Origin: Saccostrea echinata
Taxonomy: Eukaryota
Assembly: GCF_033153115.1 (NCBI RefSeq)
Contig: NW_026889761.1
Span: 16,554,001 to 16,618,000, forward strand
Direction of reading: 5' to 3'
DNA: 64,000 nt
A program made the translations under genes and the position numbers. The notes beneath the pieces are model-generated. The model saw only the letters and a program-made list of their open reading frames with translations, searched no databases and was not told where the DNA came from. Positions 37,401 to 61,990 of this stretch are shown here, piece after piece (the first letter of the stretch is position 1; every line of letters begins with the position of its first letter).

Positions 37401-38894
37401 CTGATTACAGGAGTTTGTATAGCCGCAATAAAATTATTTAAACTCTCTCTCTATATATATAAACAATAAGGATTTGTTTAAAAGTTTACAAAATTTCTAA
37501 TTCTCCAGGCTCTGCCATTGGTTATGTACACTGACGTCAGTCGTAACAGTACAATTCTTTAAAGCTTGATTGAAACCTTTGGAAAGAGCCCCAAAACAAA
37601 ATGATCTAATAGTTTATTTAAATACGCTGTATGTATATGGAGATTTAAATAATTCTAGAATTATCTCAATATGACTAACATTTGGAATTCTGTACTACGT
37701 ACTACTCTAATCATCTTTCAAAATTTTATAATTCTATTGATGATTTAAATCTTCCATTCGTGCTTTGAATTCTCCTTACGTACCTTATAGCTGAAAGTAG
37801 TTCGCGTAAAAAGTATGAATATGTGCTTATCTGGAAGATAGATAATACTAATCCATTTTACAACTAAGAGAAACGAATTTCCTTCATTATCTTGAATTAT
37901 GCTTGCAGTGTATCTGCAAGTCGAATTTATATAACTATGTTTCATATACTATCATGGAATGTATTATGAATCGCTCGACTTCTTTTGGGAACAAATAAGA
38001 CAAATAGAGGGAGAAACAGAGTAGATAAAAAGGTTTATGTCTTTGAAAAGATCATGACACTCATCGCATGTATTCTTGAGATATTATAGCAAGCTCTTAC
38101 TTAAATTATAGTCATTATGTAATAAATCAAACTTTTCAATTTCTATTGTTTAGATTTGCTTGAAGGTTAATCCATTTTTCTGCAACTTTATATATTACTT
38201 ACTGATTTGCAAGAAAATAATAACAGAATTCAACATATTATTTCATATGATTTATGCTTTTCCGTAAAGTTATAGGGACATTTTTCAAAAGAATTTAAGA
38301 ATTAAGGAGGATATTTTCTTCGCCGTACAACATATCTCGTGAAGAATTTATACTTCAAAATTCTCAGGCCCGTACTATTCTCCTCTTTGAAAGAAGACAT
38401 TTTCTGGTTCAGACACGTTTAGAGGAGAAGTATTATTCCAGCAATACCCCCAGAGTGTTATTTATAGTTAACTCAAAAATGAAAATATTTAACAGGCTGT
38501 TTTGTTAACTGCTGCTTATTATTCAAAAGTATAAAAAAAAGTCCAGGGCATGACAAATGTGACACATGATACTTGGATGCATGACAAAATTAAAAATCAA
38601 TTTAGAGAGAAGACTGAATAGTGACCTATATATAGCTGATAAAGTTTTAACAAAGAATCTCAATTGGAGTGTACCCCGTTTTATGGTAAACATATATATT
38701 AAAGATCGTAAAATGGAAAAAAGCAAACACGCATATATCACAGGATTTCAGGTAACTGAAGACGTTGAATGAACCAGGTAAGACAGTTTAATTGAATTTA
38801 ATAGCCGAAAAAAAATGTTTTGATTCTGTACAATTGGAATTTTGCACTTTGACTAATTCTTTTCTTTCCAGAGAAATCATAATGTCAAAAAATA

Positions 38895-40572
38895 ATGAAT
38901 CATCTGACGCAAGATGTAGTACGGTGTGGGTTATGTAACGGCAAGAAAAATAAGTTGCCTGCTGATAGATTATGCAGTACATGCAATGCAGATCTATGTA
39001 GTGAGTGCGTTGGTGTCCACATTAGGAACTCGAACCCATCAACTCAGCATATTATTGTTGGTCACAAGGATCGGCCAACGGAACAGGTTTTTGATGTTTT
39101 AAACTGTGACACCCACATGGAAAGATGTATTATGTTTTGCAGTGTTTGCGACAGACCTGTATGTGCAAAATGCCTTGCATCAAAATCGCATAGAAATCAT
39201 GAACTGGTTGAAATTTCATTAAATATACAATTGCTGTTAGAAAAGCTTAGAGAAGAGACGGAAGAGCTTCAACATTCCCTGGCACCAGGGTACGAAAAAC
39301 TGATATCTGATCTAGAATATAAAAAAAATGCTTCAGGAAAGATCTCACAAAGAGGTGAGAGAAAACATAATTGAGCAGGGGACCTATCTCCACCAAGAAC
39401 TAGAAAAAATCATTCAAAATCATCTGAAGGAAGCAAAGAAAATAGAGGAAGAAGACCTTTCAATTTTAGGAAAGCAGATTTCAGATATGAAATCAATTCT
39501 CTCTGAGATTCAGAAAATTACTAAAGAAAATCAGAATCTTCTGAAGACAAAAACCATTAAAAACGTTTTGAAACATGAGTCGGAGAATGAAAGATTCCCA
39601 GAAGTGCAAAAATTAATCGAGTTATCGCCTCCATCTTTCGTGTCTCAAAGGATTCCTCAAGAAGCATTAAGCCAGCTGTTTGGGACACTCACCTGTTCTG
39701 TCAGAAGAGAGACGCGTCATTATCTTATACCCTCTGCGACTAATCTTCGAAGCAAAAGAGAGGGCCTCAGAATACCTGAAATAATACGAACATGGAGAAC
39801 TGGATTGAAAGTCTCACCAAAAATTTCCTGTTGTCTTGAATCGGATGACTGTTACGTTAGATCTAGTAGCACTATCAAACAATTTAGCGCAACTGGAAAT
39901 GAGTTAAATGTGACAAAATTAAAATCGGAGAGTCATTTTCTCATTGATATAACAGTTTCGAAAAATAACACTTTGTTTTACAGTGATAACCGCGACAGAA
40001 GTGTTAATTTTGTAAAAAATAACACAATAAAAACCCTAATAACACTTGATGGTTGGAAACCATTAGCTATATGTTCCTCTTCTACTGGTGACATTTTAGT
40101 TTCAATGCAAACAGATGACGAAAAACAAAGCAAAGTTGTCCGATATTCTGGGACTACAGTCTCTCAGGAAATTCAGTACAAAGATATAAGTACACCTTTG
40201 TACTCAAACCCATTATTCATTTGTGAAAATACAAATTTTGATATATGTATTTCTGACTGGGATAAGAACTCTGTAGAAGTTGTTGATAGCGATGGAGAGT
40301 TCATTTTCAGTTATGAAGGAAACCGAGCTTTGACAAAATATAAAGATAAGTTTAATCCCCGAGGCCTTGCATGTGACAGCTTGTCTCATATTTTGATAAC
40401 CGACTTTCTGAATAACCTTGTGCATATTATTGATCATAACGGACACTTTCTCCGATTTATTGACAACTGTAACCTTCACTGTCCACAAGACGTGAGCGTG
40501 TCCAGAGACAATAAGCTTTATTTGGTGGAAAATTCAAAGGAGGAATTAAAAGTAATCAGTTATCTTGTCTAG
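38895..40572 (+). CDS. B-box/B-box/coiled-coil/NHL-like beta-propeller protein (TRIM2/3/71-like, RING-less), with one frameshift near 39321-39328
   Basis: B-box1 CGLC...CSTCNADLCSECVGVH...H; B-box2 CDTH...CSVCDRPVCAKC...H..H; NHL-like repeats WKPLAICSSSTGDILV, FNPRGLACDSLSHILITD, VHIIDHNGHFL. Two overlapping ORFs are joined across an A8 run. Confidence 0.85.
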
Positions 40573-44969: not shown

Positions 44970-46172
44970 ATAAAATATTTGCATGCTCATCAGTCTTCAA
45001 GGAATGTTCAATAGAATTTCAAAATTCTTTCAAAAATTATGCAGAAGTATATACGCTTATTTATAATATATATTTGTTGTATTGACAATAAAATCAATAG
45101 GTTCCAGTTATGAGCCGAAAGTTTACACAACCCTCCTTTTTTTTTTCTTTTTATAAAAATATTTTTTCGAAATTTCTTTTAAATTGGACTTAATTCTGTA
45201 ATTTCAGACCGGTAATGAACTTAGCTATAGAAATACCCATGTAGGAGGCCCATGATGAGGCACATGTTCACTTGAGCAATTTAACATTCAACGACAGTAT
45301 ATTTTTGTGTCATTTTCACAAATATTGTGGCCTCTTCCCTAGTTACTCAAATATAAACGGGAGTACATTTATTAGAGGCAATCACTTTAGTGCTGGTATT
45401 ACTGTCTTTTGAAATCATCTAGTTTTACTTCGAAAATAAGGGGTGTTGTAGATACTTCCTAAAATAGGTTGATTATAGAGTGAAGTCGAAACATTAAAAT
45501 TCAAGTCGTTCATCCCCACTGAACATGAACTCCACGTGGGGAAAAGTAACATTCAAAGAAGAAAAAAATATCAAATGAAGTAACGTGGCTTCTTGAGAAA
45601 CAAACTGACTTTTTATAGTTTAAGAGCCCACCATTTGCATGAGCGCATGGTACGCGGCCCGAGAGTATAATAAACGATAATGAACATATAATTAATGTAA
45701 TGACAACTTTTATAAAGACGTAGATTTATAATGCACTTCTATGAGGCATTTATCGATTAACTTGATTAAAGTAAAGTAAACGAAATGACCACAATAATTC
45801 AGAATCGTATTCAATTTTGATCGAGACTTTACTTTCATTGATCCAATGTACATGTTACTAGAAGTAGATATTTTTAAACATTTCACAGCTGTTACTGTTT
45901 GAACATCTGCAATTAAAAATAGCTATATAGAAAAAAATCATTCATGAAGTATATATATTGCAGAATTCCCTTTTCTTTCACTGAAACAACATGCAGTTAC
46001 TTATTTATAAAAAGTGTTTGTGTCTATCTTTTACAATTCCCCTTCCTTGGTACACATGATATTTGGTATAAATTACTCATACCTAGACATATTTTCAATG
46101 ATTTAAAATGTTTCCATATGTAAATTAGCACAAACGACAACATGAAAAAGTGTGCTTTAATTAATTTGGAGA

Positions 46173-46680
46173 TTAACATCCCTTCTTGGTGTATTGATAG
46201 CGCCATATTGTAGTTTTTCTATCCGAAGGTATTGCCTTGTTTTCTCTGGCACTTATATACCGAATGCCAAATGACACAATACCAACATGCCCAGAGCCCT
46301 GTGGGTAAGGAAAGGCTATGACATCGACAATCTGTCTGTTGTTGATTTCAGGAATATGCTCATAACAACCTGTATCCAGTACGTATGCAGAATTTGATTT
46401 TCCCAATTCGTTAGCCCCAATAGGTGAATATCGCCACCAGCTTCTGCAAATTCATTTGTACATAAAAGAATTAAGTGATTCTGTCAATCGAAAAAGAATC
46501 AATGCAAAATGAAGTTAAATTTTTAAGCAACCTCCTTGGGCCTTTGGCTCCCACGGAAGCTAAAACATCATTGCTTCTGTTGCATAGATCTCGTTGACAG
46601 CTTTTCAAACTACATCTTGTGCCGTTGATTTGTCTCCGTGCGGCACTCCATATTTGACTTTTGAAAACGCACTGCGACCG
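46173..46680 (-). CDS. NlpC/P60-CHAP-like amidase paralogue A lacking the catalytic-Cys motif (inactive paralogue or pseudogene); first coding exon not resolved
   Basis: Exons 46680-46532 and 46443-46173 are open and share intron position and phase with paralogue B. Retains DVIAF...GSGHVGIVS but is 18 nt shorter where B has KCNIFV. Confidence 0.72.
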
Positions 46681-46781
46681 CTGTTAAATGTTTTTTTTTC
46701 TTCAAAAAATGACAGATATATGACTAGAGTTTAAAAAATGAAATATTTTGTTGTTTTCGATTTATTTTTTACATTAATACT

Positions 46782-46920
46782 NNNNNNNNNNNNNNNNNNN
46801 NNNNNNNNNNNNNNNNNNNNNNNNNNNNNNNNNNNNNNNNNNNNNNNNNNNNNNNNNNNNNNNNNNNNNNNNNNNNNNNNNNNNNNNNNNNNNNNNNNNN
46901 NNNNNNNNNNNNNNNNNNNN
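46782..46920. other. Assembly gap (139 N)
   Basis: Run of N characters. Confidence 1.
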
Positions 46921-47469
46921 GATCGTGAATCGTGAAATGGAAACATGTCACTTGTATATAAAATAATGCATACTTTTATCGCCTGTGATGACAAGAGAGA
47001 AGTGAAGGACTATATATCTTTTTATTTGATTTCATTAGTTTCGTCCATTTAAATTATTATAAATACAATATAAGATATATATATTGAAATCAAATACGTA
47101 GTATATTTTCTGATGAAATCTTAACATGTAACAACCTTTGATGGATTTATCTAAAATCAGTTTTTAACATTCTCCCCCCACCCCCCCCCCTTATTTTTCT
47201 AGAAGGATAGTTACCCATTCAGATACAATTAAAAAAAATTAAATTGACTTACTTTTTGGTCCTAGGACACTACTTCTCTTGTGAGATATGGAAAGGCAAA
47301 TACAAACCGTGAAAGAAACTCCGTGTTTCAATTAAAATAATATAAAGAAAAGATATAAAAACAAATGAAATTGGAAGATAACGAAGATCATGCTCAAAAC
47401 GTGGGAAGGGAAAATTAGAATTCGACGCTCTAATTTTCTTCAGAAATGTAATTTCCATTCATCTTTATT

Positions 47470-47965
47470 ATAAATTCAACTCCTTACCCTTATCCTTATT
47501 ACCTGCATACAAGGTACATATCTCTCAGTTGTTTCGCGCATACTCTACGTATGAACAATTTCTAAAACTAGGAAAATTATTGACAATCAAGTTGAGGAAA
47601 ATGAAGTTGAGGAAACAAGAATATCAAGAGTCTCAATCTGGGTCATCATTTCGTAAGTTCTATGATCGATACAACGATATTCTCAGCAAATACAATCTAT
47701 CATTAAGTCAAATACTGACTGACGTTTTCATACTAATTGTTAGGCCATTATTTACACACTGAATTGTCGACGGATTTCCCTTTATTTCCCGATCATGACA
47801 AGGAACACACGGCGGGTGTGACCGGTCGGCATGGGATGCTCACTCCTCCATGGCACCTGATCCCACCTCTGATGTTTTAGAAATCCGTGATCGCTCTGCC
47901 TCTGATTTGTACTGTTTGAATGGAATTTTAAGCTTGAATGCTCTTCGTTATATATGCTCTCCATA
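47470..47965 (+). mobile_element. Penelope-like element 3' fragment
   Basis: SQLFRAYSTYEQFL...SSFRKFYDRYNDIL followed by the conserved CGGCGGGTGTGACCGGTCGGCATGGGATGCTCACTCCTCCATGGCACCTGATCCCACCTCTG. Confidence 0.75.
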
Positions 47966-49561
47966 TATTTCATTTCAGGACTGGTGTGTTTAATAGATGC
48001 AAGTCTTTTTGACTTCTAAAGGTGAATGAATATTGAGAGGGAACTAATTGACAACACATGCACTTGTTCTGTTTTTACAACAATTTATAAGCGTATTTGT
48101 TTTAAATAAATTGAGCCATACCAATATACATTATAGAGTATTTAAAAAAAAGTAGTTCCTATGATGTATTCATGTTTACATTCACAGGCTTTAAGGCAAT
48201 ACCATATATAACCGTAAATGCTACATTTTGCGTCTTTAAATGAAATTTGCTGTGCATTTTAAAACAATGTGCTATTGAATAGTGAAATTTTTATAAAGCG
48301 GCATAGACCTTTTTGGACTCAAAAGAAACCCTTGTGAATGATTTTACAATCGTCATAGACTTGTAATTAATACAACAATTTGAAGAAAAAAAACCTTGCG
48401 AACCAAACAAGATAGTGTAGCATGTTGTAACAGAATTACTTCACTTGATTTCATATCCAATTGAAAAGTTAAAATTTCTGCAAAGATTATTTTCCATGAA
48501 AGAGAGAAAAAACTTCAAATTCACTAAAACATCAAACACCAGAAATCTTACCAACCGCCTGTTTGATTATTTGTGCTTCTTAATTCCCTGAAGTTTGGAT
48601 TGTATAGTTAAATGATCGCCCAGATGTAGCTCCACAAAAAAAAAAAATCTTTGGTACGCAAACTGCTCATTAAGTGGCTGCAAAACAAAAGTACACTTGT
48701 ACTGTGTTTATGAATTGAAATGATCTACCTGGTCTCTCTTTTTCTTTTACTTTTGTTTCTTTTCAACCTATAAACTTAAACTTGTATTGAGGAAGGAGAG
48801 TGCTGGGTTGTTAACTTATTTAATAATCGATATAATAATATGACAATTACACGTATATCCAACGTATATACATGAATATACATTTTTGCTACTAATTTAC
48901 ATATACTAATAAAAGAGTCCATTACATTTTTAGTGATTTTGAAACCATGTCGGTCTATTATGTACAAACATTTATTTGTCAACATCTCCCCCTCCCCCCA
49001 ACATGCACATAAAATGGGAAAAAAATTACATGTATACTTTTAATTTTTTTTTAATTAAACAAATGTTGATCATACAATGTCAGTCCTTAGATCTTGCAGC
49101 TTTTTTCTCTAGAATTATATTATACGGATTTGATTGTTATACATTTACTGGTAAGAGTTTGCTAACAAGGTGTTTATATAACTAGAAGGAAATAAACGAA
49201 TACTGTGCAGGAATAAGATAAAAATAGGCCCAATAAGGTCATATACATGTACATGATAGGATTTATTTGCATTACTTCAAGTAGATACATATATATGATA
49301 GTACTTTGTATAACTGATTTTATATGTACATTTATCACTTTGTGTTGTTGTGGTTTAAAGATAACACTATAACTGTTTAAGTTACATGGGCTATATAAAT
49401 TTCAGTTCCTGTTAACGTTTGTACAGAAATAAAAGAGGTATGTCCAATATGTTATTTTTCCATATATAAACCTGAAAATAAGAATTTCTTTCAGTTATTT
49501 AATATTTTTTAATTTCAGGATCTAAAAGGACTTATTAATCACAGCGTCTCAAGAACTTTCC

Positions 49562-49879
49562 ATGTTTTCTTGGATAATTTTTCATTTACTAATAATGGAA
49601 TGTACAGTGATGCAAGCATATAACACAGTCAGAGGGACAGAAATAGAACAGAGAACTGTGCCAAAGACAAAAGATGAGTGTTTAGCCCTATGTGGGGACA
49701 GCTACTATAAATGTGCGTTGGGCGATTGTGATCAGGACAAGAATAACTGCGGAGATAGATGTACTCTATCATTTCGTCATTGTTATAAAGATTGTGATAG
49801 ATATATTATCCTAACTACGACAACTACAAAAAGTTTACCCGAAAATGAAAACGATTTTTTGGAAGATGACGGTATCTAA
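49562..49879 (+). CDS. Small secreted cysteine-rich protein (105 aa; 8-Cys CX3C array, acidic tail)
   Basis: Hydrophobic N-terminus MFSWIIFHLLIMECTVMQA; C-x3-C-x6-C-x4-C-x6-C-x3-C-x6-C-x3-C. Upstream TATATAAA (~49392), non-coding exon donor GAG|GTATGT (~49437) and acceptor TTTCAG (~49519). Confidence 0.8.
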   Translation: MFSWIIFHLLIMECTVMQAYNTVRGTEIEQRTVPKTKDECLALCGDSYYKCALGDCDQDKNNCGDRCTLSFRHCYKDCDRYIILTTTTTKSLPENENDFLEDDGI

Positions 49880-52936: not shown

Positions 52937-53768
52937 TCAACACCCCGTTTTCGTGTATCTATATCTCCATATCGTTCTACTTCTGTCAGTTGGAATGTCT
53001 TTCTCCTCCACAATATATTGACCAGCACTGACGTACTGACTCCCAGTAGACACAATACCAACATGACCACTGCCAGCATCTACTGGAAAGGCTATAACAT
53101 CTCCTTTCTGTCTGTTGCTGAAACTTGGGATATGTTGATAGCAACCGGTATTTAATATGTATTCAGAATTAGACTTCCCCCATTCATTGGCACCTATGGC
53201 GGGATAAAAGAAGGAATCCCTGCAAAAGAAAAAAAAGAAGAAAATATCACAAATCCGTACATCGAATTGATAATAAATCATGCTGAGAGTCATTGAATGT
53301 TTTGACCTTTTTGGACGTTTCGCTCCCACATTTGATAGGACATCATCAACAAAGATATTACATTTGTTTTTACCACAAAGAAGTTTATGACAGCTTGCAT
53401 AACTCCATTTGTCACTGTTGATATGTTTCCTTGCCTCTCGTAAAATATCGTCTGCAGTAATGGCGTAAGATGACTATAAGTACAAATGAAATGACAACTT
53501 GAGAAAAGTTTAAATAAAAAAATATTTGCATATCAATAATACAAATGGTAATTAAAAGAGTATTTGAGCATTCGCTTTTTTTTCGTCAAAGACGATAACG
53601 AATGTTATAATATCATCATTTAAATAAAATCTGATTTGTTCTTCACAGGTTGAAATATACTTAAGCTTGTACATACGCTTATTAACAATATTATTTGAAA
53701 ATTTTGAAAGTACTTACCGTAAAGCAAAGAAATTTAAAAGTGCACAGGACAAGAATTTTATTAGTCAT
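52937..53768 (-). CDS. Secreted NlpC/P60-CHAP-like (papain-fold Cys-His) amidase, paralogue B, intact, 166 aa, 3 coding exons
   Basis: Exons 53768-53718 (signal MTNKILVLCTFKFLCFT), 53473-53307 (SSYAITADDILREARKHINSDKWSYASCHKLLCGKNKCNIFVDDVLSNVGAKRPKR) and 53219-52937 (...IGANEW...KGDVIAFPVDAGSGHVGIVS...TIWRY). Upstream non-coding exon donor at ~54213 and TATA at ~54254-54260. Confidence 0.82.
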
Positions 53769-55638
53769 TCTGAAAAAAAAAATAACAAGAAAGAAAAACC
53801 TCACTTAATAATAAAATAAATCACATACATGTAGTTATAACTTCGTATCAAAATTTATAGTTAACTATGATGTGTCCTTTTAAAAGATTTTTAAAATTTT
53901 TTAAAAATGAGTGCCATTTTAGTGTTCAGCACAATTACACAGTAAAAGTCTCAGAAACTGATCTTTGTACGTGGTACATGTACGTTAGGGTATATATTTA
54001 TCAGATGATTCTGTTGAATGAATAAGAATTATCATTCTAGGGAAAAATTCGTAGAAATATCCATGTAAAACGATATTCTTGAAAATAAATGTGAACATAT
54101 AGTAATTAAATATTTTTTTAATTACATTTATGTTAAAAGAATATGATTTTATGCTATGTTGCTATGTATCAGAAAATGTGTGATATTCTATAACAGTTTT
54201 AAAAATTTCTTACCTGTTTATCTTTCTGCAATGGAACTGGGACTCAAACTCTCTTTATAAACTATGAAGTAGAATTCATTAACCAAGAAGCATATAAATT
54301 TTGTATTTTTTTTAAAACGTAATACTGTTATTTATCATGTCAAAAATTGGTTTTTCCAATTAAATTTTAAAAAGATGTAAATTCTCATGTGATAATATGT
54401 AAATGGGGTGTTTTTATTCCTCGACTTTAAGCATTATATGCTTGTCTTTCTGCACAGTAATAACTGTAATTTTATGCGGAAGATTATGTAATTCAAAATT
54501 ATTTATTCTGTCGGTTTTTGTAAATATTTCTTTTTAATCATTCTCATTTTTAACAATAATTTGCCTTGTTTTATTGTAACCCCCCCCCCCATGTTCTCTT
54601 AGGTAGTAAAGTGTAAATATATATGCTAAGGGTTTGGTCATTGCTTATTCCATAGGTATGTTAAAAAAAAACGTTTGATGAACTTGTGATTTGAATGATT
54701 AAAAACATAAGCAAAACAATTTATTTTTCTTTTAAAAATTTATTACACGGTGTTTTCAGGTGAGGACCATACTTCATAGTTATTTAATATATTTTAGACA
54801 TTTTAAACTAATCGTTGGTATCGAACATCAAAAAATTTAAATATGTAAAGAAGTGCAATGTTTTGTCTTATACATCTTACATCTAAAGACAAAGTGGATG
54901 TAAATATTTTAGATAGTAGCAATCAAGTATTAAATTTAATTTTCTGATCAATAAATCTCTAGATTTACAAAAAAAAAGTGACAAAAAAAAATTATATATC
55001 ATATTTTCAAGATGAAGAAAATATATAAATCGAAAGGACAATATTATATAAATATTATATAAAAAGAAACCTTACCAAACTGTTTTGTTTGCTGCAGATC
55101 TGCGTCAAACCTGCTGCAAGGTTGCTGGAAACACAATTGTTGCTTTTTTGTTGGAAGATGTTTGTAGCTAGCTTTAATATTGCGACTAACTTTAAGGCAA
55201 TGGCTGCACGCTTGCAGAAAATTTTGAAGAACTTTACACGTTTGAAGGAAAATTGCAGGAAACACATGAGCAACCGATCGCGAACGTTTGAAGGAAGCTC
55301 GCGGGAACATTAAAAAAGTCGAATTATCCTCTGAAATACAGAAGATACACAGGACAACAAAGACTTTACAATTTAGAAATTTTGATATGAGCCTGTACAC
55401 CTTTCGGAATTGTGTTTGAAGAAGATAATCCTTTTTAAATTTATTCAAAGGTCTTGTTCTTCCAGGCACGTACATGTACTACGGCACACACCATATCTGA
55501 TCGGTAAGATTGTCGTTAATTTCCATTTCAAATTTCAAACATCGGTTTTTAAGTTTTTCATCCGAAAAATCCGTGAACTTTCACCTCTAGTGCCGAGCAT
55601 TTGGTGAAGGAACAGTCACTATACCTACGACTACGTCT

Positions 55639-57260
55639 CGATCAAGAGGCGAATGTCCTACCATGAGGCTACCGTAAGCTATACTTTAAAAGATTTTTGA
55701 TCATATCTTCCTATATATGCCATTTTGAAACTTTGATCGCCCATTGATCCATCCTTTCCCCATGGTAATGATTTGAACAAACTTGAATTTGCACTACCTT
55801 GAGATGCTGGCAGATTAATAACACTAATCATGGTCCCTGTGTTCTTGAGAAGAAAATTGTTATTGTCCCATGAAAACTTTGACCCCCAATTGTAGCTAAT
55901 GCCCATTCTCGGAGGTCATATAAATATACTAATCATGGTCCTGCTGTTCTTGAGAAGAAGACTATTTATTTCCTAAATATTTCCTTAAAAACATTTTTCT
56001 CCTATTGTAGCCCAAGCCTACCCTCGGGACCATGATGTCATTAAACTTGATCGTGCACTAGGAAGCATTCATTTCAGTATATATTTTGGCCAGGTCGTTC
56101 TTGCGAAGAAGATTATTTATGACATACAATTTTGCCTTTTCTTGATTATCTCCCCATTTAAAAGTCAGTGAATTTTAATTTGAACAACCTGAATCAATTT
56201 TAACATAGGATACTCGTGCCAATTTTGGTTGAAATTTGCCCAGTGGCTCTGAAGAAGAAAATGAAATTATAAAAGAAAACTAGAGCGAGCTCGTTGCAAA
56301 GCAACGAGTAGGTCTTCCGTTGGAGCTGCGGAAGGAAGAAGTGACCTTGAGTCAATGTCATGCCACATTCTAAAGTTATACATGTAAGCAATCTTGTAAG
56401 GGGAAGCAACTTACAATATTTCGCTAGGAAAAATTGTAAAGGAATGTAGCTGACCTTGAACATTCCAAATGACCTTGCGTCAAGCCATGACACACTCTTG
56501 TCATAAAACCCAATCTGTGTGTTACCGACTTGAAAAGTTCACAGTGACACGTTCTTTTAGTCCATACATACAGTCAAAACACCTTATCCTTAGTGACCCT
56601 GAACTTGAGTCAAGGCCATGTCACACTCTGCATGATACCAGCAATATTTCACTAGTACAAATACAGTAGCGAAATTACAGTTTCTCTGTCGGTGACCTTG
56701 ACTCGACCAAATGACCTTGCATCAAGGCCATAACACACACTGGTTAAGAGCAATCCCAATCTGTGGGTTTCTGAATGGATAAGTTCAGCCATGTTTTTTC
56801 AGACCATACAGCGAGTCGGAATAATTTGTTAGGTTCAACACAATGATTAAAAAATTCATTGAGAATGTTTTATGTGCAGTTTGGATAAGTAGTAAAATGT
56901 GGAGATCGGTCCTTTGGATGAGACCGTATAAGGTCTCGTGTCGGGGTAAGTGCTAGCATGAAAAGGATCTCTCATGCTATAAATTTTGAATTTACCGGGT
57001 GACAGTAAAAACAAAATTTACAACATGACATGTAAATTTTTTATTTACTGACAACCGGTAAGTTCAAAATTTACAACATGACAGATCCATGGCACTTGAT
57101 TCTACCTCTGATTTCAAAAGGTTTGCACTGCTCCTGATTTGTATTGTTTGAATGATCTTTTAAGCTTGAATGCTGCACAGGTGCTTGTGGACAGGACCCC
57201 CATATACACCCTGGGTCCAAGAATATTTTTATTCGACTTTTTCCGTACATTAATCTTCTA
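55639..57260 (-). repeat. Left arm of a ~1.62 kb near-identical inverted duplication
   Basis: Reverse complement of 60093-61714 with only scattered substitutions. The ORF track gives mirror-image identical peptides. Similarity extends more divergently into SINE sequence (55540-55637 vs 61760-61855). Confidence 0.95.
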
Positions 57261-60092
57261 GTACACATTTACAATGTATTCCATATGAAAAATCCAAAAA
57301 GTAACGTAGAACAATTAATGTTCTATTAAAAAATCATACCTGCGGTATTATGAAATAGAGAAGGTAAGTCACTTCCATTTATTAACACTGGACCCCTCTT
57401 GGAAATCGGGCCTAAAATATCATATACCTACTACATGTTACCAAAATATGTTATTATATCTTGTTTCGGTAGATATTTTTGCGTGGACCCTGAGGTCCAC
57501 GCAGAAAATATATTAGCGGAGTTAAACCGGATGCCATGGGCTTACGTCAGGCTACGCATGCGCGAGGATGTTAGAGAGTTCGCCTATAAGATAACTTGCC
57601 CGTAGAACAATTCGCCCTCTTCGAATTAGAATATGCCAATCATTGGCAAACCTCGCTCTAAAATCTGCACATCGTATTTATGTATTCTTTGGCGTAACCA
57701 AGATCTGAATTTCTCTTTAATGCATATATCCTTATATACAAACTAAATTCTATGGTACAAGCATTTTAAATAAGTAGGAAGAACTTATAGAGATAGCTTA
57801 ACAGCTTGAACATGTTGAATTAAAACCACTCTACGTTTTAAAAGATAGTCATTTGCCATGTTTACCGGCATTAGTTTTGTGCATCAAGGTTTGCAAAATT
57901 ATTTGATAGACAGCAATCCAAATATAGCTTGATAAAGGCCTGTAGCAATGTGTTTCATGTGGGGGAGAGGGAGAAACATCCCAAAAAAATTCTGCGTACT
58001 ACAGATCTGTGCTACACGTGTACCATCTATCTTTCCAATGATAGGATATTTCCGTATAAATCTAGTACAGATGTCAAGTCCTATCGTTAAGCATTACATG
58101 TATCGAAATAGCCCGATTTTTTTCAGTTAAATGACAAAACTATAGGCCAATCGGGAATAAAATTTAACAAATTTGCTAGAAAAGTACAATCACTCAAAGT
58201 AGGCAGATCATTGTAAAAAATGTTAACGAAAGGTAAACCTGTGCCACCTTTCAGAGTAACCAATGAACTCGTCCATGGATGCATTGACGGTCGTTTTAAC
58301 AAGAATAGATATGGGTTACCCCATATCCAAAATATTCGACTTTTAATTTACTCCAATTTTCACTAGAAAAAAAAACTGTACATGTTATGAAACTGGTGTA
58401 TAGTTCTTCATGTCTGTAGCAAATACCGTCACCAGTCTAAGCGTCACTAGCAAACAGTACACACTCCTGTGCTTGCAAGACCAAATAGCCTAGGTCTTCA
58501 CAGTCAATTGCATCTTCTCAGACCTTCTGCCGAGAAGTTACGATTGCAGGTGTTGTATGTTAACCATTCCGTTATTTAAAAGAGACAGAGAAAAAATACA
58601 CACACACAAAATTAATCTTTTTTGTGTTTTTAAATGATCGAGTTAATCGATAACTTAGCATTAATTGTTTAAGATAACTCGAGACCCTTTGGTAAAGGGG
58701 GGGGGGGGAGTTCTAAGTCACACCACAGGCACTTACATTCAAGCCCGTAGCAACGGTTTTCAAAGGGGGCAACCTCCAAAATGAGTTGACAAGCAGAAAT
58801 AAATAAATAAATTAACAACCTGTGCACCACCCTGTAAAATCCTATTTAGGGAGGGGGGGGGGGGCTTCGTCTAACTTTTCGGTACATTTTGATTTCTTTT
58901 AAATGTTTGATTTTCTGTATTTTGAACCTTTCCGCAACAAAAAGTGCGAGGGAGCTTCCAGTGTAAATTAAAAGATATATTCAAATTCTAACAAAAGATT
59001 TTTTTAAAGAAGAAGTGAGCCCCCCTCCCCCACATTTTGAACCTTTCTCTTTATTTATTAAAATATCACCATAATATAAGGAGATAAATATTGTCCTTTA
59101 CAAAAATTTTGATATTTCTTAGGCAAAATTTGTACACTAAATTAATTGTCATGTACAAATTTTGCATGAGAAATATCAAAATTTTTGTAAAGGATAATAT
59201 TCTCTTATGGATACTTCCTTTCATGACTTTTTATACATACTTCTTAAAGTTAGTTACTTTAGAAGATGGTCCAAAAATGGCATAGCCGTACGCTCGTTCG
59301 CTGGAATCTTCCGATGATACCAAAGTGAAATATTTCAAGTTACATGTGGGTGGTCGAGGCCCGGAACCGGTATTGTGAAGGTACACGGAGGAAGCAATAA
59401 GCAAAACTCTATCTAGAGAGCAGAAAGGGCAGAGATTGAAGTACTTAATATTTTATTGAAAATACTAGATTTAAAAAAATATATATATTACAGAATAAAC
59501 ATTCTCTCTCTCTCTCTCTTCCTCTTTCTGCAAAAATATAGGGGGTTCCAACACCCGAACCCCCCTCCCTGGATACACCAATGGAGATTACGATACCTGC
59601 ACGCTTCAGCCTCTTTTAATTCAAGGCTAAATTACAATTGTGATAGATACCTAAATCAACATTTCATATTCATATCATTTCAAGGTCATGATTTTTCTTA
59701 TCATTACAGCCTAATTAAGCAGACTTAAATAACGATGAAAATTAGGTAAAAAGATTAAACTTAATTACACCTTTGTAAACTCACTAAATCTAGAAATTTT
59801 CTTCGAATTTCGTTTCGAAACACATGCATATGGTCCACGTATTGCAGTCCTTTTTTAAAGGACAGCAACTTGTTTTGTCTTTAATCGTGCTATTTAATTG
59901 TCTATGCATTCCACAATAATCCGAGTATTCATCGTCAAACGTAAAAAATGTAAGATTTGGAAATGTCAAAGTAGAAATTATACGGAAGTGATGCAGAAAC
60001 GACATCTAGCGGGTAACTCTCGAGTTCCGAGTCTTACAGAATTAAGGGAAAGGCAAGAGGTCTACGGAAAAGTTCGGGAAAATTTTGATGAA

Positions 60093-61714
60093 TAGAAGAT
60101 TAATGTATGGAAAAAGTCGAATAAAAATATTCTTGGACCCAGGGTGTATATGGGGGTCCTGTCCACAAGCACCTGTGCAGCATTCAAGCTTAAAAGACCA
60201 TTCAAACAATACAAATCAGGAGCAGTGCAAACCTTTTGAAATCAGAGGTAGAATCAAGTGCCATGGATCTGTCATGTTGTAAATTTTGAACTTACCGGTT
60301 GTCAGTAAATACAAAAATTACATGTCATGTTGTAAATTTTGTTTTTACTGTCACCCGGTAAATTCAAAATTTATAGCATGAGAGATCCTTTTCATGCTAG
60401 CACTTACCCCGACACGAGACCTTATACGGTCTCATCCAAAGGACCGATCTCCACATTTTACTACTTATCCAAACTGCACATAAAACATTCTCAATGAATT
60501 TTTTAATCATTGTGTTGAACCTAACAAATTATTCCGACTCGCTGTATGGTCTGAAAAAACATGGCTGAACTTATCCATTCAGAAACCCACAGATTGGGAT
60601 TGCTCTTAACCAGTGTGTGTTATGGCCTTGATGCAAGGTCATTTGGTCGAGTCAAGGTCACCGACAGAGAAACTGTAATTTCGCTACTGTATTTGTACTA
60701 GTGAAATATTGCTGGTATCATGCAGAGTGTGACATGGCCTTGACTCAAGTTCAGGGTCACTAAGGATAAGGTGTTTTGACTGTATGTATGGACTAAAAGA
60801 ACGTGTCACTGTGAACTTTTCAAGTCGGTAACACACAGATTGGGTTTTATGACAAGAGTGTGTCATGGCTTGACGCAAGGTCATTTGGAATGTTCAAGGT
60901 CAGCTACATTCCTTTACAATTTTTCCTAGCGAAATATTGTAAGTTGCTTCCCCTTACAAGATTGCTTACATGTATAACTTTAGAATGTGGCATGACATTG
61001 ACTCAAGGTCACTTCTTCCTTCCGCAGCTCCAACGGAAGACCTACTCGTTGCTTTGCAACGAGCTCGCTCTAGTTTTCTTTTATAATTTCATTTTCTTCT
61101 TCAGAGCCACTGGGCAAATTTCAACCAAAATTGGCACGAGTATCCTATGTTAAAATTGATTCAGGTTGTTCAAATTAAAATTCACTGACTTTTAAATGGG
61201 GAGATAATCAAGAAAAGGCAAAATTGTATGTCATAAATAATCTTCTTCGCAAGAACGACCTGGCCAAAATATATACTGAAATGAATGCTTCCTAGTGCAC
61301 GATCAAGTTTAATGACATCATGGTCCCGAGGGTAGGCTTGGGCTACAATAGGAGAAAAATGTTTTTAAGGAAATATTTAGGAAATAAATAGTCTTCTTCT
61401 CAAGAACAGCAGGACCATGATTAGTATATTTATATGACCTCCGAGAATGGGCATTAGCTACAATTGGGGGTCAAAGTTTTCATGGGACAATAACAATTTT
61501 CTTCTCAAGAACACAGGGACCATGATTAGTGTTATTAATCTGCCAGCATCTCAAGGTAGTGCAAATTCAAGTTTGTTCAAATCATTACCATGGGGAAAGG
61601 ATAGATCAATGGGCGATCAAAGTTTCAAAATGGCATATATAGGAAAATATGATCAAAAATCTTTTAAAGTATAGCTTACGGTAGCCTCATGGTAGGACAT
61701 TCGCTTCTTGATCG
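60093..61714 (+). repeat. Right arm of the inverted duplication (mosaic of PLE tail, palindromic MITE, TGACCTTG-repeat Helitron-like element, Cg170-like units and SINE head)
   Basis: Matches 55639-57260 in reverse. Helitron-type 3' end CTCGTTGCTTTGCAACGAG...CTAG|T at ~61045-61073. Cg170-like motifs CAAGTTTGTTCAAATC and ATTTCAACCAAAATTGGCAC. Confidence 0.95.
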
Positions 61715-61990
61715 GGAAGCCCGAATTCACTTCTCGTTCGCCGCGCCGCGACAAACCTAAGACGTAGTCGTAGGTTGTGACTGTTCCTTCACCAAACGCC
61801 CGGCATTAGAGGTGAAAGTCGCGGATTTTTCGGATGAAACCTGAAAACCCGATGTCCCGTGTCAAAGTAAATCCTGTTAAAGAACCCTAACAACTCAATT
61901 GCCCTAGGTGCCAAATATAGGTCTAAACTTCAACGGCATATTGTGTCGTCCCGTAATGGGACGTAAGATAACATATCATATAATCAATCA
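61675..61990 (+). mobile_element. tRNA-derived SINE (bivalve-type)
   Basis: tRNA-like head GGTAGCCTCATGGTAGGACATTCGCTT, body GTGACTGTTCCTTCACCAAACGCCCGGCATTAGAGGTGAAAGTC...CCCGTGTC, and an (AATC)n-like tail. Confidence 0.7.

What the first reader, a model, noticed from the sequence alone, without database searches (positions are those of the whole stretch)
46173..46680. Paralogous amidase with a precise in-frame deletion of the catalytic KCNIFV motif
Seen: paralogue A has the same intron position and phase as B. Its exon is exactly 18 nt shorter (B: LLCGKN-KCNIFV-DDVL; A: DLCNRS-NDVL) and its last exon exactly 12 nt shorter. Both deletions keep the frame, there are no stops, and GHVGIVS is retained while ANEW becomes ANEL and GD becomes VD. 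Inference: two frame-preserving deletions are compatible with a maintained non-catalytic peptidoglycan binder or decoy paired with an active enzyme, analogous to catalytic versus non-catalytic PGRPs. A young pseudogene is equally possible, since the first exon is unresolved next to an N gap.
Basis: partly seen in the sequence, partly recalled or inferred. Interest (0 to 1): 0.7.

Follow-up and report, generated by a model that had tools for sequence, protein, structure and literature searches.

The report
Decaying copy of oyster cell-wall enzyme
This oyster gene copy has lost its start codon, its export signal and the active-site segment of a predicted bacterial-wall-cutting enzyme, while an intact sister copy lies nearby, so it is most likely an ordinary dying duplicate rather than a decoy protein.

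Summary
The 18-nt and 12-nt frame-keeping deletions are real. But A's closest paralogue is not B: it is an intact gene, C, 47 kb away, beyond the window, about 90% identical to A in exons and non-coding DNA alike (sister pair 99/98). Against C, A has also lost the splice acceptor, ATG and most of the signal-peptide exon plus about 0.8 kb of intron; its remaining exons contain no Met. The deletions remove the start of the central catalytic helix and part of a core strand, and A changes near-invariant residues (W86, G112). In one sample, contigs show spliced intact C and a B transcript; A appears only as one unspliced 300-nt piece. Verdict: an unprocessed pseudogene of a secreted NlpC/P60 (CHAP-like) protein (0.85). 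The open frame suggests it died after some time as a live gene. A better pseudo-enzyme candidate lies elsewhere in the genome (contig C1: catalytic Cys is Ser, also in another Saccostrea).

The parts
46173..46443 (-). A last exon (271 nt with TAA); 12-nt deletion near 46240 against C; W86L, G112V; His motif GHVGIV kept
46444..46531 (-). A intron, 88 nt, phase 2, GT-AG, same position as in B and C
46532..46680 (-). A middle exon (149 nt); 18-nt deletion near 46572 removes the catalytic Cys segment; W40C, S37G, N53S
46681..46960 (-). Damaged start-exon region of A: acceptor and ATG of the signal exon gone, a 10-nt remnant of that exon, then a T-rich low-complexity tract in place of the rest of the exon and most of the intron (248 nt in A against 1083 nt in C)
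47279..48596 (-). A upstream DNA, 87% like C's upstream; strong donor-like GT at 48551, possibly the end of a non-coding first exon (inferred)
45000..46172 (-). A 3' flank, 82-90% like C's 3' flank; ATTAAA at 46161
52937..53768 (-). Gene B, intact: ATG/signal exon 53768-53718, exons 53473-53307 and 53219-52937; product matches P0004 (NCBI label: Saccostrea echinata LOC133186035)
54155..54806 (-). B upstream DNA with donor-like site near 54214; 85-89% like C's upstream, where it is joined directly to A-type upstream DNA

Best explanation
A is a broken duplicate, most likely a decaying unprocessed pseudogene, of the intact neighbouring gene C, which encodes a predicted secreted NlpC/P60 (CHAP-like) cell-wall peptidase. 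Shown: A and C are an inverted duplicate pair about 10% diverged; A lacks the acceptor, ATG and most of the signal exon, has no in-frame Met, has two in-frame deletions and several substitutions at near-invariant sites; C and B are intact. Inferred: after the duplication both copies changed quickly in protein; A kept an open frame for some time, then lost function and collected at least four lesions (18-nt, 12-nt, a short acceptor/ATG deletion with a small templated insertion, a large deletion filled by a T tract). Their order is unknown. It would make no secreted protein; any RNA would be non-coding. C and B would supply the enzyme activity (peptidoglycan cleavage is inferred from fold and Cys/His dyad, not tested).
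For: C found 47 kb away, + strand; A-C sister pair 99/98 with A's branch 0.15 against 0.066. A-C homology stops 18 nt before C's ATG and resumes about 0.1 kb before exon 2; 248 nt in A against 1083 nt in C; 10-nt exon remnant, reached by 9 of 2000 shuffles. No Met in 139 residues. Coding divergence 40 of 420 nt against non-coding 248 of 2396; dN/dS 0.55 for A-C against 0.24 for B-C; 26 differing residues: 0 of 2000 simulations with both copies at omega 0.24 and 14 of 2000 at 0.5 reach that, 245 of 2000 with A neutral. Deleted residues: C55 in 62 of 63 relatives with a residue there, K54 61 of 63, F58 60 of 69, V143 V/I in 79 of 87; substituted: G112 in 88 of 88, W86 in 78 of 85. In the C model (pLDDT 91.8) residues 55-65 are the central helix and 143-147 a strand. 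Contigs of one sample show spliced intact C, including its signal-exon junction, and B; no A-type contig crosses a splice site.
Against: No stop and no frameshift in the two exons: if A had been neutral since the duplication, P(no stop) is about 0.26 and P(no frameshift) about 0.09, together about 0.02, so 'dead from birth' is unlikely. C also carries about as many derived amino-acid changes as A by eye, so high dN/dS is not A's alone. One A-type 300-nt contig (23 of 24 diagnostic letters A-type, depth 3.5) exists in a run guessed to be RNA. The start-exon loss is seen in one assembly only. The T tract happens to hold an ATG-opened hydrophobic frame ending at a weak GT in phase with exon 2.
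Confidence: 0.85

Rival explanations
1. A is a maintained non-catalytic peptidoglycan binder or decoy; the start-exon loss is private to the assembled haplotype, or a new hydrophobic leader from the T tract replaces it.
For: Both exon indels keep the frame, no stops (joint chance about 0.02 under full neutrality); splice sites of the short intron kept; 12-nt deletion also in an A-type contig of run X1, which reads Gly at the GD site (depth 3.5, may be an error); ATG-opened hydrophobic frame with a weak in-phase donor 92 nt before exon 2. Non-catalytic NlpC/P60 binders exist (RipD, PMC12067865 passages).
Against: Two separate lesions at the start exon and no acceptor left for it; homopolymer frame would be unstable (inference); deletions remove helix and strand core, whereas RipD lost activity by substitutions; none of 70 relatives spanning the site shows a clean 6-residue deletion: 59 Cys, 1 Asp, 10 gapped rows that are incomplete or misaligned fragments by eye; coding DNA not conserved over flanks.
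Confidence: 0.07
2. A's two exons are used by read-through splicing from B's signal exon (phase 0 donor at 53717 to phase 0 acceptor at 46680), giving a secreted inactive chimera.
For: Same strand, compatible phases, 7 kb apart.
Against: B has poly(A) signals from 52871 onward; no contig in 3 runs of one sample carries A-type exon 2; the product would still lack core structure.
Confidence: 0.03
3. A is an assembly artefact or a divergent allele of C placed in tandem.
For: The assembly holds duplicated loci elsewhere (C16/C42 pairs); a T-rich tract lies at the break.
Against: About 10% divergence throughout, inverted orientation, different flanks; an independent run has a contig with 1 difference from A in 300 nt including the 12-nt deletion; one sample holds A-type, C-type and a further divergent intact-motif sequence.
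Confidence: 0.05

Closest known systems
NlpC/P60 superfamily peptidoglycan peptidases (PF00877, CHAP PF05257); nearest solved fold Trichomonas vaginalis NlpC1, 6bim, Z 13.0, rmsd 3.0, 115 aligned
   Same: C and B: same fold and Cys...His motifs; 31 and 24 of 51 family members hit CHAP and NlpC/P60 at E<=0.01.
   Different: Scores below Pfam cut-offs for C; a KCNxFV subgroup with members labelled as bivalves, gastropods and an annelid and as Rhs-associated proteins. A lacks the Cys segment, start and signal. Amidase versus endopeptidase activity untested.
RipD of mycobacteria (non-catalytic NlpC/P60 peptidoglycan binder; 4jxb)
   Same: NlpC/P60 fold without catalytic Cys.
   Different: RipD lost activity by substitution of triad residues with the domain kept and the gene conserved across the genus; A lost it by deletion, has no start exon and no conserved counterpart found.
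Domesticated amidase effectors (Dae4/Tae4), including the Nematostella pair with one Cys-less homologue
   Same: Secreted animal NlpC/P60-like proteins; precedent for an active plus Cys-less pair (PMC8713801 section 8).
   Different: A, B and C do not match PF14113; Tae4-family genes lie on other contigs; Tae4 folds score Z 6-7 against 13 for NlpC1.
Unprocessed (duplicated) pseudogenes in tandem immune-gene clusters (recalled general class)
   Same: Introns kept, intact parent nearby, loss of start exon, near-neutral divergence.
   Different: No stop or frameshift yet in the two remaining exons.

Membership tests
Unprocessed pseudogene | Intact parent or sister gene with shared introns and flanks | tested here: met
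   C, about 90% identical in exons, intron and flanks
Unprocessed pseudogene | Disabling lesion | tested here: met
   Acceptor, ATG and most of signal exon lost; no in-frame Met; catalytic segment deleted
Unprocessed pseudogene | Near-neutral coding divergence | tested here: inconclusive
   Coding 9.5% against non-coding 10.4%; dN/dS 0.55; but no stop or frameshift and C also changes fast
Unprocessed pseudogene | No protein product | not testable with these tools
   Needs proteomics or ribosome profiling
NlpC/P60-CHAP peptidase (B, C) | Papain-like NlpC/P60 fold | tested here: met
   Model pLDDT 91.8; Z 13.0 to 6bim and 11-12.7 to other NlpC/P60 and CHAP chains
NlpC/P60-CHAP peptidase (B, C) | Catalytic Cys at helix start and His on strand | tested here: met
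   Cys55 opens helix 55-65, His125 opens strand 125-129 in C; conserved in relatives
NlpC/P60-CHAP peptidase (A) | Catalytic Cys | tested here: not met
   Deleted
NlpC/P60-CHAP peptidase (B, C) | Peptidoglycan cleavage | not testable with these tools
   Inferred from fold only
Maintained non-catalytic peptidoglycan binder (RipD-like, PGRP analogy) | Complete, translatable, exportable gene | tested here: not met
   Start/signal exon broken in this assembly
Maintained non-catalytic peptidoglycan binder (RipD-like, PGRP analogy) | Domain core retained | tested here: not met
   Deletions map to central helix and a strand; W40C, W86L, G112V. A itself was not folded.
Maintained non-catalytic peptidoglycan binder (RipD-like, PGRP analogy) | Inactive form conserved across alleles or species | tested here: inconclusive
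   No relative with the 18-nt type deletion among 70 spanning rows; pseudogene-like loci would not be in protein collections; 12-nt deletion seen in one other run
Maintained non-catalytic peptidoglycan binder (RipD-like, PGRP analogy) | Binds peptidoglycan | not testable with these tools
   Needs pull-down
Dae4/Tae4 (PF14113) | Profile match to Tae4 | tested here: not met
   0 of 51 aligned members at E<=0.01; genome search gives 4 loci on C16/C42, none at A, B or C

The most novel reading that the evidence does not exclude
A is a transcribed, catalytically dead cell-wall binder born by in-frame deletion, which swapped its signal exon for a de novo hydrophobic leader made from a T-rich tract (or keeps the signal exon in other haplotypes) and acts as a decoy beside active B and C.
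Probability: 0.07. Interest if true: 0.6.

Novelty: new member of a known kind. Interest (0 to 1): 0.15.

Why it matters
As a pseudogene A matters little: it is a snapshot of birth and death in a small oyster gene cluster. Two by-products are of more use. B and C are intact, expressed, unnamed secreted NlpC/P60 proteins of a subgroup distinct from Dae4 and easy to assay against bacterial walls.

Tried and rejected
Scan for a signal exon upstream of A by hydrophobic ATG...GT frames in the window: only chance-like candidates. Search for an own promoter of A resembling B's: score 41 against shuffle mean 44, so the order of events behind the B/A/C layout is unresolved. Dae4 identity: rejected. Single-sequence PDB search: nothing. 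Sequencing-run search: no holder on record as RNA; 3 runs of one sample, contigs only, so depth does not rank expression and missing cover of A's exon 2 or of C's upstream exon is no evidence of silence. The A-type contig stops one base short of the W>L site and does not reach the 18-nt deletion, so these could not be checked in a second individual. A's spliced product was not folded, so misfolding is inferred from C's model. No eukaryotic relatives' genomes were searchable, so no orthologous locus of A was seen. Earlier findings: none by place or sequence. Chou et al. 2015 (Nature 518:98) was not held, so its family assignments and supplements were not seen. Paper searches (listings only, except as cited) showed no paper on this molluscan subgroup; that does not show it is undescribed.

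Full report
Observation. On the minus strand A has a 149-nt exon (46680-46532), an 88-nt phase-2 intron and a 271-nt last exon (46443-46173). B has exons of 167 and 283 nt around an 87-nt intron, and an ATG exon at 53768-53718. B's spliced product matches P0004, which NCBI labels Saccostrea echinata LOC133186035.

The real sister gene. A search of the own genome gave 6 matches: B, A, two exons of a gene C on the same contig beyond the window, and two distant genes. C encodes P0005 (LOC133186036) with signal peptide, KCNIFV, ANEW and GD intact. C lies inverted, 46.6 kb from A. A and C align over exons, intron and kilobases of flank at 82-87% by BLAST with gaps; substitutions are 40 of 420 nt in the exons and 248 of 2396 nt in non-coding DNA. 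In a tree of 21 rows they are sisters (99/98), A's branch 0.15 and C's 0.066. A DNA search found only A, C and B. C's upstream DNA is B-type (window 54806-54155) joined directly to A-type (48596-47279); either a B+A pair was duplicated and the copy lost B's body, or B's body entered A's first intron. I could not decide which.

The start exon. C's ATG exon is 51 nt. A's similarity to C ends at 46928, 18 nt before C's ATG, and resumes shortly before exon 2; the interval is 248 nt in A and 1083 nt in C. The own-genome loci over this place show a short deletion, with a small duplication-like insert, that removes the acceptor and ATG, a 10-nt remnant of the exon (9 of 2000 shuffles reach such a match), and then a T-rich tract (105 T in 145 nt) in place of the rest. 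A's remaining exons have no Met; the one internal Met of C falls in the 12-nt deletion. One loophole: the T tract holds an ATG-opened hydrophobic frame of 45 codons ending at a weak GT in phase with exon 2, with no nearby acceptor upstream of it seen in C's position. Other upstream ATG-donor frames are short or not signal-like.

What the deletions hit. A profile-free search gave 89 relatives. In an alignment of A, C and 93 of 94 other proteins then held, the deleted K54, C55, N56, F58, V59 occur in 61 of 63, 62 of 63, 57 of 65, 60 of 69 and 59 of 72 rows with a residue there. A also changes G112 (88 of 88), W86 (78 of 85) and W40 (aromatic in 66 of 68). Of 70 rows spanning the Cys site, 59 have Cys, 1 Asp, and 10 are gapped fragments; none shows A's clean deletion. 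The AlphaFold model of C (pLDDT 91.8) has helix 55-65 and strand 143-147, so A loses about half of the central helix and the start of a core strand. The fold is NlpC/P60: Z 13.0, rmsd 3.0, 115 residues to Trichomonas NlpC1, with Foldseek, profile, Pfam and atlas searches agreeing. That A would misfold is inference; A was not modelled.

Selection. dN/dS is 0.55 for A-C (27.5 non-synonymous, 14.5 synonymous differences) and 0.24 for B-C, where dS is saturated. With the non-coding substitution spectrum, 26 differing residues were reached in 0 of 2000 runs with both copies at omega 0.24, 14 of 2000 at 0.5, 245 of 2000 with A neutral and C at 0.24, and 1798 of 2000 with both neutral. Against my reading: under full neutrality A should have gained a stop in 74% of runs and about 2.4 frameshifts (P of none 0.09), and roughly half of the residue changes look derived in C. 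So both copies changed fast and A probably died only part of the way along; the finding was also picked because the frame was open.

Reads. Three runs of one sample, contigs only, guessed to be RNA. Spliced contigs in X2 and X3 carry the intact motif; the 781-nt X2 contig has 7 differences from C over 633 nt and 35 of its 40 listed differences from A are C's letter; an X3 contig joins C's signal exon to exon 2. A B-type contig is in X2. A is seen once: a 300-nt X1 contig over 46105-46404, depth 3.5, 1 difference from A, with the 12-nt deletion and no splice joint; the difference restores Gly at the GD site and may be an allele or an error. It shows that A is not an artefact of this assembly; it does not show a spliced A message.

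Comparison. A is not Dae4: 0 of 51 aligned members match PF14113, and Tae4-family genes sit on other contigs. Nematostella has a Cys-less Tae4 homologue beside an active one (PMC8713801, passages and section 8), and RipD is a non-catalytic NlpC/P60 binder made by substitutions (PMC12067865, passages); tick Dae2 background is from bioRxiv 10.1101/2020.04.10.036376 (passages). The PGRP analogy is recalled, not tested: PGRPs are a different, zinc-type fold. Named relatives come from bivalves, Haliotis, Lottia and Capitella; 3 of 51 carry Rhs cores.

A better candidate. The C1 gene (L014:4226-4885) has an open two-exon frame with Ser at the catalytic Cys. Its orthologues are 74-81% identical to the Magallana gigas protein and have Ser (Saccostrea cucullata), Gly with His also replaced by Phe (Crassostrea virginica) or Cys (M. 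gigas); they form a 100/100 clade and show no obvious signal peptide by eye. That is the pattern expected of a maintained pseudo-enzyme; its first exon, expression and dN/dS were not checked.

Verdict. Observation confirmed; A is most likely a decaying duplicate of C (0.85); decoy 0.07; interest 0.15.

Noticed in passing
L014:4226-4885 (G000:C1, + strand): Intact-looking family member with Ser in place of the catalytic Cys; orthologues have Ser (S. cucullata), Gly plus His>Phe (C. virginica) or Cys (M. gigas) at 74-81% identity, no evident signal peptide. Likely a conserved oyster pseudo-enzyme; deserves its own study.
   Followed up: partly
L010:5300-6901 (G000:C12, beyond the window): Gene C, intact, spliced in two runs; its upstream DNA is B-type joined to A-type sequence, i.e. 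a possible promoter swap.
   Followed up: partly
window 53306-53220: B's 87-nt intron is in frame and has no stop, so retention would add 29 residues; weak donor.
   Followed up: no
L013:3506-2898 (G000:C29, - strand): Another intact-looking family member with KCNLFV and the same intron position.
   Followed up: no
L015-L018 (G000:C16, C42): Four Tae4-family (PF14113) matches over the cut-off, in two near-identical pairs that may be haplotype duplicates.
   Followed up: no
window 55539-57260 and 60093-61855: Inverted repeat of 1.7 kb at 96% identity with a palindrome near 59087-59201; looks like a foldback or long-TIR transposon.
   Followed up: no
run X3, laid on window 46571-46678: A contig with C's signal exon but a divergent intact KCNIFV region: a divergent C allele or a further paralogue.
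   Followed up: no
P0027 (Haliotis asinina label): Family member with Asp at the Cys site and Thr at the His site, signal peptide present: another possible non-catalytic form.
   Followed up: no
window 38883-40569 (+), 35582-34056 (-), 49526-49876 (+): Other open frames: a B-box/TRIM-like gene, a Thr/Ser-rich mucin-like gene and a short Cys-rich frame between A and B; labels by eye only.
   Followed up: no
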